NCBI RefSeq assembly: GCF_022045235.1
Contig: NW_027266319.1
Location: 41,044,001-41,108,000, forward strand
DNA: 64,000 bases
Direction: 5' to 3'
Source: Haliotis cracherodii
Taxonomy: Eukaryota
Shown here in pieces: positions 6,070 through 60,399 of this stretch. Under the pieces are notes generated by a model that was not told the origin of the DNA, ran no database searches, and saw nothing but the letters and a program-made list of their open reading frames with translations. The position numbers and the translations under genes are program-made. Every line of letters begins with the position of its first letter. Position 1 is the stretch's first letter.

Positions 6070-8457
6070 AGCTTTTGTGTCACAGGTTAGGTTCGCCGTT
6101 TCTATTTCGTATGAGACCCCGGATTGAAGTGGTTAGGTCCCTGGCGGGTTAGGGTTCGATCACTTAGTGGCAGAAGTCAATAAATTTGACAAAACCCTTT
6201 CCATATTCGTAAGAAACATCGATTTTCTAAAGTCGATTGTACGATTCCGACTGCATCATGAGCATGTGTTTATCAATCGTTATTAAACAGTGATGATACC
6301 AGCTGTTTGCGAAAAGGTGGGCGTATCCTGCCCCGCCTACCCGTCACAAACACAGTCATGCAACGGCAAGTCAATTGTTCACCTGAAAAAACAACAACAC
6401 GGGAACATGTGGTACTAGTCAAAGAAGGGAATTGTATCGGACGTCATTCTAGGCACCGATGAGAAACATTTTCCACCTTTCCTGCACGTTTAAGGGCTGT
6501 ACATGCCAAGCGTGAACCAGGCCATGCAAACATTTGCTTCTCTGTTAATTCACGTTTTATCAACCGCATATGTCCAGCAATGATTAGTTACCCTAATTAT
6601 ATAGAGACAATGTCACATGTTTTCACAGTCAATAAGAGTTAGTCTCTGAGAAAGTTGCATGGCACATCGTTCCGAAATGTACAAGCTACAAGAATGAAAT
6701 AAACTTTATACAAGTAAAGCAGTCTTAAATACATTTATAAATGTCCAATCTCATAATAGTATCCACATGTGAAAGCAGCTTATCATTTGCGTCCCCCAGA
6801 CAGTGTATTTTGAGTGAAATAAGATGTGCAATTCGTTTTCAAACTTCTATTGGTTCTTTCATTTAAAATACGTTTGCTGCGCTTATTCAAAAAAGATGAC
6901 ACCCAGATGAAACACATTTGTCCATTCACAACACGGAACGCATTGCGGACAATTCTAAACTAAGACCATATGATTTAGTTGCGTTCTTTTCGAGAAAACG
7001 GGAACGTGCAACCAACTGATATATTGTTTACAGGTCGTGACTACAACGGACTGCCTAGGAACGCGTTCAGAAGGTAGGTTTGGCAATGCCTCCACATTTG
7101 ACCGATTGTCAGTTTTAAAAATCATAAAATAGCTATCATAAAATAGTTCATATTCAGTACCCCTTTGATGTGAAATTTGGATTATATTAATACAAATATC
7201 GTCTCTCTTGGAGTTGGTGGTACGAGTAGGTTCACGCATTTCACACATTGCTTTTAAGTTTAAAATTACTGAGCCCCCGAAAAAACCCTTAGTTTAGGAC
7301 AACGACTTCACCAGTCACCTGCTATATGTTAAATATGAACAGGATCTCCCGGCACAGAGAGATTCCAGAGCGGGAATACGGTGAAATGCAATCTTTAAAA
7401 ATGTAACTGAGCATTTGATGTCTAGAACTTGAGTATTTGAAATGTTACTAATCTGGATCGAGTATTCGGCATGGTAGAAACATCTGAATTGAGATCGGGT
7501 GATTACAGTTACTGTTTATTTTGAGGATTTGTGTCTCACCATAACAGCGGTGGTGGGTCATCTTGATATCAATCACTGGCTTGTCTGGTTCAGAGTCACA
7601 TCTTGATATGTCAGTAATATTACTAAAACATTCACCCGTTCACTCTATTTTTAAGATGATATTGAAAATTCCCAAAATGACTCGAACAAACAAGTTAATA
7701 GTCGAACTCCATGTTCTTCAGGGTAAAGAAGGCAAGATTCATACGCAGTTAATACTTTGGTTTAAATATGAAATTTCCTCATGTGCATAGTCGCAGATTT
7801 ACGAAAGTTACACAATAGAGCATTTGGTATAGGTTACCCCTGATTAAAATACACATTATGGTTAAACAGTGCCCATGTCACTTTGATATCACTCACTCAC
7901 TCACTGACAGGAACATATTTTCATTGTTATTTATATTAGATCTATCCTCAAACACTATATGCTAAGTAATTACTATTCAAATTACCCGTGTCACCAAATC
8001 ATTTTCGATGTAATAACTAAAGGTCTGGAGAAGATAAAGCCTGCTTGTCCGAGGTTGATAGTGCCAAACGAACCAGAACAATACGTTTCCCTATTTATCA
8101 GATCCGCACACATAGGCTTCAATAAAATGGCTGTTTAGTGAAGTGACTGATTGGATGTATATACGAAGCTTCAGAAATATCTCCCGTCGTCACTCCAGGT
8201 ACAATCATAAAGATTTCAATTATCGAAATGAACTTCAAGGAATACCCGACGATACCATCAGTGAGGCACGTGATTTCTTTTGACCAGTGGAGGCCAGACA
8301 CAGACATTAATGCACCATGTTTCCCCGTAACCATGTAAACGCGTATATAATGATCCCCGTGACAGGCGTGGATACAATGTGCCTTTAACAGTCTTGGCGA
8401 GTAGCTGGTGTGGTTGTTCTACAGCATCGCACGTTAACAAAGTCACCTGATTTCGAA

Positions 8458-9541
8458 ATGGGTGAACAGTCAACCATCGATTTGGACAACCGAGATCCCA
8501 ACAACATCAACGACCATTTGAAGGTATATTATTTATGTATCCTTATGTTTACGTATCACTGCATGCTGCCTTTGGATATCGCCGAACTGATTGTTAGATC
8601 AATTAATTGGATACAGAAATCGGACAAGCTTTGTATAACATGTTGTCCTAATGCAAAGACTCGTTAACATTTCCTTGTGAGAAATGTGCACACGAGAATG
8701 TTTGAATTAGAACTGATAAATTAATTATTACGCAAATGAATGTACAAATGGTGTACACAAGCATCAGTAGACAATATGAAGTAGTTGTTTCTCTTTCGGG
8801 CGAAACATTGTCATGAAATCTTTTTCATTACGAAAATAATATCATAACTATCCAAAAGAGAACTTCGATAATAACACATTGAAAATAAACGCCTTGAAAC
8901 TTCTATCTTCCTCATTTGTTGATGTGACCTCTTCTACTCCCTTCAAAACATTATGCCAAAACTATACGATTTTAGGCATCATTCAAAATACAATACAATA
9001 CAAATGGATATTTGGTAACACTATGAGTATGGTACATTATTTATCGCAGGCTAACTAAATTTACCCACTCATGATAACGTAACGGTATTGACAAATTAAC
9101 AAATATGTTCATCTGGACAATTATGATTTACTGAGAGTATTTCACAGTATCAAAGAGTGTAGTTCACAGATAATATGACGTCAAAGCTAATGTATCCTAC
9201 TTTACAACCCACAGGTCCAGTTCGAGGATGTCTTGGCGGAGCCCGAAGGTGCCCACAGCATTGACTGCTGCTGGAAGTTTACCAACACTTGCTTCAACTG
9301 CGCCTTCAAATGCTGCTACATGTTGATGACCCTGTGTGGACCTATCTACGGTCTCTGCTATGGTTGGCAGTACGCTATGCTTGCTTGTTCGCATATTTGG
9401 CAGTACACACCACAGATCAGAGCTTGCGAAATCAACTGTGTCATGCTGAGGAAAATATACACCATCTGCCTCAGTTGCTGCCTGACGCCATTCTGCGAAT
9501 CATGCGGTGGCTTCTTCAGCAGGATTCAAGTCAAACAGTAA
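8458..9541 (+). CDS. CAV: Caveolin, locus 2, 130 aa; exons 8458-8523 and 9215-9541
   Basis: MGEQSTIDLDNRDPNNINDHLK|GT...CCCACAG|VQFEDVLAEPEGAHSIDCCWK...FSRIQVKQ*; phase-0 intron; AATAAA at 9934. Confidence 0.95.
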
Positions 9542-58182: not shown

Positions 58183-60399
58183 CAATAATGTCTGCAACTG
58201 TCCTGATATACTAGCACAAGATTTGGAATACTGTTACAGTATATTCGGATTTTTCCATTGATTTGTAAAAAGACTTTAAAAAAGCACTCACGCGTGTTAC
58301 TTCACACGTCAGGGCCAAAGTAATAACTACCACGGGATGCAGCCACTTTGCAGGAGCATTAACCCATGGAGCTGTTTGACAAAATATTTATCCATAATTT
58401 CATTTTGGGGGTCGAGATTATGTTAATATTTTCTATGGAAAAATCAGGTGACACAATTTTCGCTTTGTTCGTCTGTGTCAAGATACTGTCTTAATATAAG
58501 ACCTGGACATAAACCTGCACATAAACACTCAACTAACACATGGCTGTGATAAACAGTATTTACAACAAACGTTGTATGTTATAAAGAGAATAAACAAGAT
58601 GTACAGTCTAATACGTCGTTGTCATAATAATCACAATATCGACACCGAAAACTTCATCAAAAGGAATTGTGTTTTAGATCACAACAAATTAAATGTTGAC
58701 TTATGTTGCAGTCATCTATGTAACCATAATTTGTTATTATTGTCTTAACCAGACAGACCATTGTTTTATAGCATATATGACGACGCAGCACATTTTAACA
58801 ACCGTAGGAACACCAGTAGATATAAACATAAATTCAAAAACAGACCTAAACTCGACCAGTAGTCATGCCCATGCATTTGGTCTAATGAGTGTGAATGAGT
58901 TACATTTAAGTGAATATCATTTAAAAAGATATTCTGTCATCAGTGTGATCACTTGTCATATATCACAGATGAACTTAAGACTAGTTGGAGACTATTAGCA
59001 AAGGTTAAAAAATAATCTGGCTAGAGATCACCAGCAACCTCAGATAGGCCACCATCCTCAGACCTGGGGACTTGAGATACCTTTGCTACCTACATTGTAC
59101 CCCACCAGGATTTACACCATGCCCCTAACTACAGGAGGTTGCTTTAATTAAATTAAAATCAAGACGTTTACTACGATTAAAACTATGTAGGAAAACATAC
59201 CGTTGGTCAAATGTATCGCCTACAGTGAGACCTCGTTAGACTGGAGTTCGGAAACCATTCCTTCCGACCAATATATAAGGGATATATATTACAACGGACA
59301 ATATTCTAAACCATGATTTGTTAATCAGGACAATCAACTTAAACTGCCCGGATTAAACTTTTTTTAAGTGTGCCTGTCATTTCCATAAATAATTTCAAAG
59401 ATATTTAGACTTTATTCTCGTATTTAAAACAGTAATTATCTAAATCTGGCTCAGATACCTGCAGTACATATTAGACATAAAATCCACATATGTATGAAAG
59501 AAGTGAAATGCTGGTTAGAAAGGAGGGTAGCAGCCTTATATTTAGAATGGTAAACACTGTTGCTATGTGAGGTAAGCTAAAGCATCGCACACCCTCTACA
59601 CACACCAATACCGGAACCTGGCTTGGTCTACTTACTTACTTGTCATGCACAATTTGGTGAGACATGCATACCTTTATTTGACGCTTTGGGCTTACCCTAA
59701 CATCGAGTACATGAAGCGCCAGCTGAACTGACTCCATTGTGCGATCTTTATGACTGACCTTACTTCTGAAACCCACCCAGGTGAACATTCAGAGCAATCA
59801 AATTACATTCTCTCTTTTCACCTCCAGTTGAGAAACAGCCAACTCTTTTCTTAAACACATGTGTGTATTAGTAGAAAAGGAATTCAAGTGAGTATCGAAA
59901 CTAACGGCTTAGATTTACACCGCCACCACAATAGACGCACCCGTAGAGTCACTATCTGCTATTCACCGAAACAGCACCACAGTGGTGACAGTGAATGATT
60001 TTCGCTGGAGTAGGAAATCGTTAAATGGTCGTCAAGGGTACGCTAACAAACATAGTACTCCAGAGGACGGCGACACAGTGAAGCCACTTGTGCATGCTAG
60101 TCTTACTCTGTGAATCTGACGTTTTTGCTAAAATTAATTACATGGCCCTATCCGACCAATAGAAAACGGTTTCGTTGTGTGCGCACGTGCACCGATTGGT
60201 ATCTTAACGGTCGATGGAATTATAACTGTATGACGGGTTTCCGCTCTGAAATAGCATTGCCAAGCGGGAAAACAACCCTGTTACTAAGTAAACATATACT
60301 TAATAAAGAACAGAGAGGCCAACTGCCACTTTGTCTGCAAGAGCATCTTGCCCAGCATCATAACTCGTTGCGCCAAGTTCACCTGGTACCTTAGCAAAA

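What the first reader, a model, noticed from the sequence alone, without database searches (positions are those of the whole stretch)
8267..60160. E-box-N11-CCAAT module at invariant spacing in 11 promoters
Seen: 120-261 nt upstream of the ATG, an E-box-like hexamer is followed exactly 11 nt later by CCAA[T/C] or CCAGT. Locus 2 CACGTG 8267/CCAGT; 3 CACATG 13265/CCAAT; 4 CACATG 17191/CCAGT; 5 CACATG 23914/CCAAT; 6 CACATG 28348/CCAAT; 7 CACATG 30945/CCAAT; 9 CACGTG 39128/CCAAT; 10 CACGTG 43170/CCAAC; 11 CACGTG 47309/CCAAT; 12 GACATG 56073/CCAAC; 13 TACATG 60139/CCAAT. The spacer sequence varies but its length does not. Established: CAC[A/G]TGAC is the M-box/CLEAR-type site of MiT/TFE and USF bHLH-ZIP factors, CCAAT binds NF-Y, and fixed-distance E-box/CCAAT pairs are known composite elements. 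Inference: the cluster is co-regulated by a bHLH-ZIP + NF-Y unit, possibly linking it to a lysosome or lipid programme.
Basis: partly seen in the sequence, partly recalled or inferred. Interest (0 to 1): 0.7.

Follow-up and report, generated by a model that had tools for sequence, protein, structure and literature searches.

The report
Inherited USF–NF-Y switch in abalone caveolins
Eleven of twelve duplicated abalone caveolin genes keep one inherited pair of short DNA motifs just upstream of their start, spaced like the known vertebrate USF–NF-Y switch, so these two factors likely help turn the genes on; it is a known kind of promoter element seen in a new animal group.

Summary
They are not 11 independent sites: they are one ancestral 22-nt block, copied by duplication in one subfamily (11 of 12 loci; 0 of 10 other caveolin promoters). 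The block is a real footprint: introns and flanks are near saturation, yet it stands out in an unanchored scan and is unchanged in three relatives. But only 6 of 11 have both a true E-box and CCAAT, five share one spacer, and a constant 11-nt spacer is not significant by itself (P about 0.3-0.5). The geometry equals the vertebrate USF/NF-Y element (10-12 bp), and this genome encodes NF-YA and a USF whose pre-basic region matches Xenopus USF1. USF plus NF-Y is the best reading; binding is untested. No site is a perfect CLEAR or M-box, so the lysosome link is unsupported. E-box/CCAAT pairs at 10-13 bp also sit in abalone mobile elements, as in mammalian LTRs. Known kind, new lineage.

The parts
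8267..8288 (+). Module, locus 2: CACGTG-N11-CCAGT (CCAAT box deviant)
13265..13286 (+). Module, locus 3: CACATG-N11-CCAAT (intact)
   Evidence: (top-ranked 22-mer of this promoter)
17191..17212 (+). Module, locus 4: CACATG-N11-CCAGT (deviant; a second CCAAT lies 26 nt after the E-box)
23914..23935 (+). Module, locus 5: CACATG-N11-CCAAT (intact)
28348..28369 (+). Module, locus 6: CACATG-N11-CCAAT (intact, but the gene is broken)
30945..30966 (+). Module, locus 7: CACATG-N11-CCAAT (intact)
39128..39149 (+). Module, locus 9: CACGTG-N11-CCAAT (intact)
43170..43191 (+). Module, locus 10: CACGTG-N11-CCAAC; unchanged in contigs of three other organisms
47309..47330 (+). Module, locus 11: CACGTG-N11-CCAAT (intact)
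56073..56094 (+). Module, locus 12: GACATG-N11-CCAAC (both boxes deviant; a true CCAAT at 15 nt)
60139..60160 (+). Module, locus 13: TACATG-N11-CCAAT (E-box deviant; an extra CACGTG and ATTGG lie in an insertion downstream)
36449..36541 (+). Locus 8 promoter: upstream block and a remnant of the downstream block remain, the module between them is decayed or deleted
8327..8350 (+). Downstream block (forkhead/RFX-like 14-mer plus TATA-like run; labels recalled), locus 2
13331..13354 (+). Downstream block, locus 3
17238..17261 (+). Downstream block, locus 4
23961..23984 (+). Downstream block, locus 5
28395..28418 (+). Downstream block, locus 6
30992..31015 (+). Downstream block, locus 7
39217..39240 (+). 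Downstream block, locus 9
43258..43286 (+). Downstream block, locus 10; a same-sequence RNA-type contig starts at 43330
47381..47404 (+). Downstream block, locus 11
56161..56184 (+). Downstream block, locus 12
60280..60303 (+). Downstream block, locus 13
8199..8220 (+). Upstream conserved block (AGATTTCAAT core), locus 2; also found 47-62 nt before the E-box at loci 3, 4, 5, 7, 10, 11 and in locus 8; binding factor not identified
731..3548 (+). Caveolin locus 1 (other subfamily, no module)
8458..9541 (+). Caveolin locus 2, two exons
13462..15187 (+). Caveolin locus 3
17367..18707 (+). Caveolin locus 4
24077..25771 (+). Caveolin locus 5
28468..30310 (+). Caveolin locus 6, broken (most of exon 2 missing; end approximate)
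31123..32948 (+). Caveolin locus 7
36633..37890 (+). Caveolin locus 8, broken at the same place as locus 6 (end approximate)
39307..40800 (+). Caveolin locus 9; splice 39363 to 40474 seen in contigs of 4 of 4 runs
43389..44666 (+). Caveolin locus 10
47490..48943 (+). Caveolin locus 11
56290..58182 (+). Caveolin locus 12
60400..62784 (+). Caveolin locus 13

Best explanation
The 11 sites are copies of one ancestral 22-nt promoter block, carried along by tandem duplication of one abalone caveolin subfamily, and the block likely works as a USF plus NF-Y composite element that helps start transcription. Shown: shared descent, restriction to one subfamily, conservation above the flanks, the 11-nt geometry, and genes for USF and NF-YA in the genome. 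Inferred from the vertebrate system: a USF dimer binds the E-box, NF-Y binds CCAAT on the 3' side, and the USF-specific region bridges them, which tolerates 10-12 bp. The pair would act as a general chromatin-opening and start-site-setting unit above a forkhead/RFX-like and TATA-like block, which may carry the tissue or stress input. Copies with CCAGT, CCAAC or a lost E-box (loci 2, 4, 10, 12, 13) would bind one partner weakly, so the paralogues would differ in strength and not be uniformly co-regulated.
For: Geometry: E-box 5' of CCAAT, 11 nt, 16.5 bp centre to centre; human papers give -12/-11, kept for USF1 and MAX (PMC3730095), 10-12 bp (PMC4889920), 16-18 bp centre to centre (PMC12065363), with cooperativity from the USF-specific region and none for MAX (bioRxiv 10.64898/2026.02.16.706105). 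Footprint: in an unanchored 22-mer scan over 8 lineages the module beats the 99th percentile of an intron control in 7 of 8; only 11 of 45 intron pairs give any BLAST hit; flanks are 0.38-0.48 identical against 0.43 for random 60-mers. Bases not used to pick the sites are kept: two purines before CCAA in 11 of 11, a T at -4 on one half-site in 8 of 11, while spacer positions 4-9 match in only 4-6 of 8 lineages. Orthologues of locus 10 in three other organisms: 36 of 296 places changed, none in 43170-43204, the only clean 35-nt window of 262. The broken locus 8 has lost the module. Trans side: one USF locus, named by PDB and database hits, whose 45-residue pre-basic exon is 76% identical to Xenopus USF1; NF-YA matches. 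Genome-wide, optimal E-box then optimal CCAAT occurs 547 times against 9 for the backwards pattern; by eye 13 of 24 distinct spacers in the first 100 rows are 10-12 nt, against 8 of 41 in the opposite order.
Against: No binding, footprint or reporter data. Only 6 of 11 copies have both boxes intact, though all five bases of CCAAT are called critical for NF-Y (PMC3730095); locus 10 has CCAAC in all four organisms yet is transcribed. The broken locus 6 keeps a perfect module. The orthologue test covers one locus and is borderline (33 of 275 22-nt windows are clean; binomial P 0.04-0.06), and the three relatives are not independent. Spacer-length invariance is not significant. The raw genome-wide peak at 11 (1756 against 698 at 10, 441 at 12, a mean of 546 at 14-18, 415 in reverse order) is mostly two repeat families (58 of the first 100 rows, by eye); after collapsing repeats the excess is only about 1.5-fold. 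The opposite order is not empty (248) and has its own peaks at 6 and 18. The downstream block ranks above the module in 6 of 8 lineages. MITF binds such E-boxes with similar affinity (PMC6355916), so sequence cannot name the factor.
Confidence: 0.6

Rival explanations
1. The E-box is read by a MiT/TFE factor (MITF) next to NF-Y, tying this caveolin subfamily to a lysosome, pigment or starvation programme.
For: 8 of 11 sites have the T at -4 that MITF contacts (PMC6355916); MITF binds E-, M- and CLEAR boxes at 0.9-2.6 nM; MITF and TFE3 co-occur with NF-Y on human MLT1 repeats (PMC12065363); one relative's locus 10 carries a change at 43169 that makes an exact TCACGTGA.
Against: 0 of 11 sites are TCACGTGA and 0 of 11 are TCATGTGA in this genome. 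The fixed distance to CCAAT is documented for USF and MAX in the passages read, not for MiT/TFE. Nothing here links these genes to lysosomes. A MITF gene was not among the bHLH hits I read (split exons are missed, so this is no evidence of absence).
Confidence: 0.15
2. Both boxes are functional but act independently (for example MAX- or SREBP-type dimers plus NF-Y); the 11-nt spacing is an inherited accident.
For: Spacer invariance is within chance. One box or the other decays separately in 5 of 11 copies. MAX keeps the spacing in human data without cooperativity. MAX-like and SREBP-like bHLH exons are in the genome (names by recall). Mammalian caveolin-1 has SREBP elements (PMC3865655).
Against: Of many possible spacings this one falls in the narrow known window and orientation; only 1 of 11 has the SREBP-type flank; the 10-12 preference is seen genome-wide in this order only.
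Confidence: 0.15
3. The block is a relic of shared ancestry with no current function; the working promoter is the downstream block.
For: Fourfold sites in exon 2 are 0.70-0.94 identical, about the 0.83 seen in the two boxes, so a young duplication could leave such identity unaided. The broken locus 6 keeps it. Five copies are damaged.
Against: Introns and promoter flanks are near saturation, so exon 2 is likely homogenised by gene conversion and is the wrong yardstick; the module is a local peak in 7 of 8 lineages and is unchanged in orthologues.
Confidence: 0.07
4. Origin hypothesis, compatible with the best explanation: the block came from a mobile element that landed in the subfamily's ancestral promoter.
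For: It appears in one subfamily only. Several dispersed repeat families carry optimal E-box/CCAAT pairs at 10-13 nt, some in inverted ends around a packaging-ATPase gene.
Against: The locus 3-7 version with up to 2 mismatches occurs 5 times in the genome, all in this cluster. BLAST of 12 promoters against 9 repeat stretches gave no hit covering an E-box; the best overlap with a module was one 15-nt match at locus 10's pentamer. An old insertion could be past detection.
Confidence: 0.1

Closest known systems
Human E-box–CCAAT composite bound by USF1/2 and NF-Y (Fleming 2013 PMC3730095; Dolfini 2016 PMC4889920; passages read. Bernardini 2021, the biochemical paper, not held; seen only as cited)
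   Same: Order (E-box 5' of CCAAT), 11 nt inside the 10-12 window, purine flank of CCAAT, position upstream of the transcribed region, a USF with a conserved pre-basic region.
   Different: A mollusc; a paralogous gene cluster; half the copies use CACATG; 5 of 11 have a damaged box; binding not shown.
NF-Y/USF sites in mammalian LTR repeats MLT1 and LTR12 (PMC12065363, PMC4889920; passages)
   Same: Abalone dispersed repeats also carry optimal E-box/CCAAT pairs at 10-13 nt.
   Different: Here several sit in inverted ends of DNA elements, one of them Maverick/Polinton-like, not in retroviral LTRs; the caveolin block itself matches no repeat tested.
CLEAR element and M-box of MiT/TFE factors (PMC6355916; passages)
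   Same: CACGTG/CATGTG core with T at -4 on one half-site in 8 of 11.
   Different: No exact TCACGTGA or TCATGTGA (0 of 11); single site per promoter; no lysosomal link shown.
DECA–CCAAT element of TALE/NF-Y/Sp2 (bioRxiv 10.64898/2026.02.16.706105; passages)
   Same: An 11-bp spacer 5' of CCAAT.
   Different: No DECA motif at any of the 11 sites.
Mammalian caveolin-1 promoter (review PMC3865655; passages)
   Same: FOXO is a direct regulator there; a forkhead-type core lies in the downstream block at 7 of 11 abalone loci (motif recalled).
   Different: The review lists FOXO, PPARg, p53, NF-kB, Sp1 and SREBP elements; the passages read name no USF/NF-Y pair. The abalone genes are a lineage-specific expansion, so any likeness would be convergent.

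Membership tests
USF/NF-Y E-box–CCAAT composite | E-box 5' of CCAAT in fixed orientation | tested here: met
   11 of 11 on +, 0 on -
USF/NF-Y E-box–CCAAT composite | Spacer 10-12 bp (16-18 bp centre to centre) | tested here: met
   11 nt, 16.5 bp; published range
USF/NF-Y E-box–CCAAT composite | Intact CANNTG and intact CCAAT | tested here: inconclusive
   Met at 6 of 11 loci (3, 5, 6, 7, 9, 11); not met at 2, 4, 10, 12, 13
USF/NF-Y E-box–CCAAT composite | NF-Y flanks (two purines 5' of CCAAT; consensus recalled) | tested here: met
   11 of 11 for the 5' flank; the 3' flank (C/G then purine) in 7 of 11, read
USF/NF-Y E-box–CCAAT composite | Lies in the proximal promoter, upstream of the start site | tested here: inconclusive
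   Locus 10: a contig with 0 differences starts at 43330, 139 nt after the module, no cover upstream in that run; locus 9: depth 0-0.45 over the module bin in 4 runs. Contigs cannot show a start, and three runs have low-depth contigs across the locus 10 promoter.
USF/NF-Y E-box–CCAAT composite | USF with its USF-specific region and NF-Y exist in the organism | tested here: met
   USF locus L076, pre-basic region aligned to Xenopus USF1 (calling it the USR rests on position and recall); NF-YA matches. NF-YB and NF-YC not searched.
USF/NF-Y E-box–CCAAT composite | Cooperative binding and transcriptional effect | not testable with these tools
   Needs EMSA, ChIP or reporters
CLEAR element (TFEB/TFE3/MITF) | Palindromic TCACGTGA | tested here: not met
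   0 of 11; one relative's locus 10 has it
M-box (MITF) | TCATGTGA | tested here: not met
   0 of 11 exact; T at -4 half-site in 8 of 11
CLEAR network | Target is a lysosomal or autophagy gene that responds to MiT/TFE | not tested
   No expression data by condition
ERSE / ERSE-II (ATF6 plus NF-Y; consensus recalled) | CCAAT-N9-CCACG or ATTGG-N-CCACG | tested here: not met
   0 of 11
DECA–CCAAT (TALE/NF-Y/Sp2) | TGANTGACAG 5' of CCAAT (consensus recalled) | tested here: not met
   0 of 11
Caveolin (PF01146), for the downstream genes | Pfam match above the curated cut-off | tested here: met
   3 of 3 exon-2 translations tested, 90-122 bits against 25; nearest named proteins are Haliotis caveolins

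The most novel reading that the evidence does not exclude
The stereo-specific USF–NF-Y grammar (E-box 10-12 bp 5' of CCAAT, bridged by the USF-specific region) is an ancestral bilaterian rule kept in both DNA and protein from molluscs to mammals; abalone DNA elements, including Polinton-like ones, captured it independently in their ends as mammalian LTRs did; and the twelve caveolin promoters are a natural allelic series that tunes paralogue output by damaging one box at a time.
Probability: 0.35. Interest if true: 0.5.

Novelty: new member of a known kind. Interest (0 to 1): 0.3.

Why it matters
The element type is well known in mammals. My one search for it in molluscs (terms NF-Y, USF, CCAAT, mollusc) found 0 papers in the held library, and a search for an abalone caveolin expansion found nothing relevant by title or abstract. 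If it binds as predicted, it extends a fixed-distance rule between two transcription factors to molluscs and gives a ready set of natural promoter variants to test it. It does not change how caveolins or these factors are understood.

Tried and rejected
Raw genome-wide counts as proof of an 11-nt rule: rejected, because repeats dominate them; my de-duplications are by eye from the first 100 listed rows of each search, not from all rows. Spacer invariance as a test: not significant. ERSE, ERSE-II, DECA-CCAAT, CLEAR, exact M-box: not matched. A loose match 17.8 kb before the distant caveolin exon (L014) lies in a local repeat, and no first exon was found near it. First exons were located for 10 of the 12 caveolin exon-2 matches outside the subfamily; the other two promoters were not examined. 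A promoter tree resolved only the group of loci 4-7 (1 of 9 inner branches well supported), so the order of duplications is open. In one search the downstream block of locus 9 was placed 6 nt too early, so its 0.65 identity is an underestimate and is not used; one search has the right place. No holder was on record as RNA; 'RNA' for runs X1-X4 is a guess, and no true start site could be mapped. Orthologues were read for locus 10 only. The HLH family search did not list USF or MITF because their domains are split by introns; USF was then found by pattern; MITF was not pursued. Two papers were not held (Bernardini 2021; van den Heuvel 2005 by PubMed id); they are used only as cited by others. 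No supplement was read; Fig. S3 of PMC12065363 and Fig. 8 of PMC3730095 (figures not held) would fix how their distances are counted. Earlier scan notes near this place or on these words: none. No complex prediction was sent: the contact needs DNA.

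
Full report
What the window is. It holds 13 tandem two-exon genes on the + strand. Three exon-2 translations tested are caveolins (PF01146), and the nearest named proteins are from abalone, Haliotis (99% to an H. cracherodii caveolin). Loci 2-13 form one subfamily with exon 2 at 88-97% nucleotide identity; locus 1 belongs to another. The genome has 22 exon-2 matches, 21 in this cluster. 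Loci 6 and 8 are broken at the same place in exon 2.

Checking the observation. All 11 sites are present as written, on + only, against 0.25 expected per strand. Distances to ATG are 120-261 nt. Three corrections follow. First, 9 of 11 hexamers are true E-boxes, 7 of 11 pentamers are CCAAT, and 6 of 11 loci have both. Second, loci 3-7 share one spacer; there are 7 distinct spacers. Third, the sites are homologous. MAFFT, given no anchor, aligns them in the same gap-free columns at 10 of 11 loci. The module is in 11 of 12 loci of the subfamily and in 0 of 10 other caveolin promoters whose first exon I located. So this is one ancestral block copied by duplication, in about 8 lineages once loci 4-7 are counted as one.

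Is it more than shared ancestry? Yes, moderately. Promoter flanks are 0.38-0.48 identical, near the 0.43 of random sequence, and only 11 of 45 intron pairs give any BLAST hit. In an unanchored scan the module scores above the 99th percentile of an intron control in 7 of 8 lineages. Features not used to choose the sites are kept: two purines before CCAA in 11 of 11 and a T at -4 of the E-box in 8 of 11, while the middle of the spacer drifts. In contigs of three other organisms laid on locus 10, 36 of 296 places differ but none in 43170-43204, which starts at the first base of the E-box and is the only clean 35-nt window of 262. That test is borderline for the 22-mer alone (33 of 275 windows clean; P 0.04-0.06) and covers one locus. 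Against: fourfold sites in exon 2 are as conserved as the boxes (0.70-0.94), but the saturated introns suggest exon 2 is homogenised by gene conversion (inference).

The scan shows three conserved blocks. One lies 47-62 nt before the E-box. The other lies 25-119 nt after the pentamer and 73-131 nt before ATG, and ranks first in 6 of 8 lineages. It has a forkhead-type core at 7 of 11 loci, is 1-2 mismatches from an RFX X-box, and ends in a TATA-like run (these labels are recalled). At locus 10 a contig with no differences from the window begins at 43330, 139 nt after the module, with no cover upstream in that run; at locus 9 the module bin has almost no depth in 4 runs while the splice is seen in all 4. 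Contigs cannot fix a start site, so this is only a hint that the module is upstream of the transcript.

How it most likely works. Human ChIP studies place an E-box at -12/-11 from CCAAT, in an orientation-specific way, kept at USF1 and MAX sites but not MYC sites (PMC3730095; passages), and give 10-12 bp (PMC4889920; passages) or 16-18 bp centre to centre (PMC12065363; passages). Cooperativity is attributed to the USF-specific region, which MAX lacks (bioRxiv 10.64898/2026.02.16.706105; passages). The abalone block has this order and 16.5 bp. The genome has one USF locus, named by PDB and database matches; its 45-residue pre-basic exon is 76% identical to Xenopus USF1 and aligns with it almost residue for residue. 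NF-YA is present. I therefore infer USF plus NF-Y on the intact copies, as a general activating unit above the downstream block (confidence 0.6). Since all five CCAAT bases are called critical, loci 2, 4, 10 and 12 would bind NF-Y poorly at that position and loci 12 and 13 lack a true E-box, so uniform co-regulation is unlikely. Locus 10 is awkward for the model: it has CCAAC in all four organisms and is transcribed.

MiT/TFE and lipid readings. No site is TCACGTGA or TCATGTGA, and one has the SREBP-type flank. MITF does bind such E-boxes well (PMC6355916; passages) and one relative has an exact TCACGTGA at locus 10, so MITF is not excluded, but nothing points to a lysosome programme. Mammalian caveolin-1 is regulated by FOXO and SREBP among others (PMC3865655; passages), which makes the forkhead-type block the more interesting lead for a regulated input.

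Genome-wide context. CACGTG-N-CCAAT occurs 698, 1756 and 441 times at 10, 11 and 12 nt, 546 per spacing at 14-18, and 415 in reverse order at 11. By eye, 58 of the first 100 rows at 11 are two repeat families, and collapsing repeats leaves about 1.5-fold. With optimal flanks the pair occurs 547 times against 9 for the backwards pattern; by eye 13 of 24 distinct spacers in the first 100 rows are 10-12 nt, where 5.5 are expected. The reverse order has 248, with 8 of 41 at 10-12 and peaks at 6 and 18. Many copies lie in inverted pairs at element ends; one pair flanks an A32-type packaging ATPase, as in Maverick/Polinton elements. This parallels NF-Y/USF sites in mammalian LTRs. The caveolin block itself occurs nowhere else at up to 2 mismatches (5 hits, all here), so a mobile-element origin is not shown.

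Verdict. A real, inherited promoter footprint that works like, and on every sequence feature of its intact copies fits, the known USF/NF-Y composite; membership by binding is untested. New member of a known kind.

Noticed in passing
L017:1395-1550 and L018:5273-5449; L019:1181-1267 and 5727-5813; L020:1013-1865 and 4824-5673: Optimal E-box/CCAAT pairs (10 or 11 nt) sit in inverted repeats at the ends of dispersed elements, pointing outward; the L017/L018 element holds an A32-type packaging ATPase frame (Maverick/Polinton-like). Observed only.
   Followed up: partly
L021:1170-1215, L024:1403-1448: A dispersed repeat family has one CACGTG with a CCAAT 11 nt away on both sides, one per strand: a two-way version of the module; 38 of the first 100 genome-wide hits by eye.
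   Followed up: partly
own genome: In the reverse order (CCAAT then E-box, optimal flanks) spacers cluster at 18 nt (14 of 41 distinct, by eye) and 6 nt (7 of 41). 18 was the edge of the search. Unexplained.
   Followed up: no
window, exon 2 of loci 2-13 (9215-62784): Exon 2 is 88-97% identical among paralogues, fourfold sites 0.70-0.94, while introns are mostly unalignable: likely gene conversion limited to the exon and its acceptor.
   Followed up: partly
window 30225-30310 and 37807-37890: Loci 6 and 8 lack most of exon 2 at the same junction although their promoters and first exons belong to different groups, so the break was likely copied between them.
   Followed up: no
L003, about 225 nt before the first exon at G000:C56:41038624: The caveolin just upstream of the window has a perfect palindromic GGTCACGTGACC site with no CCAAT partner; its close paralogue, locus 1, has CCAAT before CACGTG instead.
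   Followed up: no
window 40924-44303: Low-depth contigs in three runs run on from locus 9 through the promoter of locus 10: read-through, a long 3' end, or DNA in the run.
   Followed up: no
window, downstream block to ATG: This distance is 129-131 nt at 6 of 11 loci (2, 3, 4, 7, 10, 12) although the sequence between is only about 0.48 identical.
   Followed up: no
window 28039-28330: A tRNA-like short repeat lies just upstream of the locus 6 module and has replaced the upstream block there.
   Followed up: no
window 4299-6142: A GC-rich 45-47-nt tandem array follows locus 1.
   Followed up: no
L077-L079: Two NF-YA-type loci in the genome; the second has a stop inside its second match, which may be an intron edge or a broken copy.
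   Followed up: no
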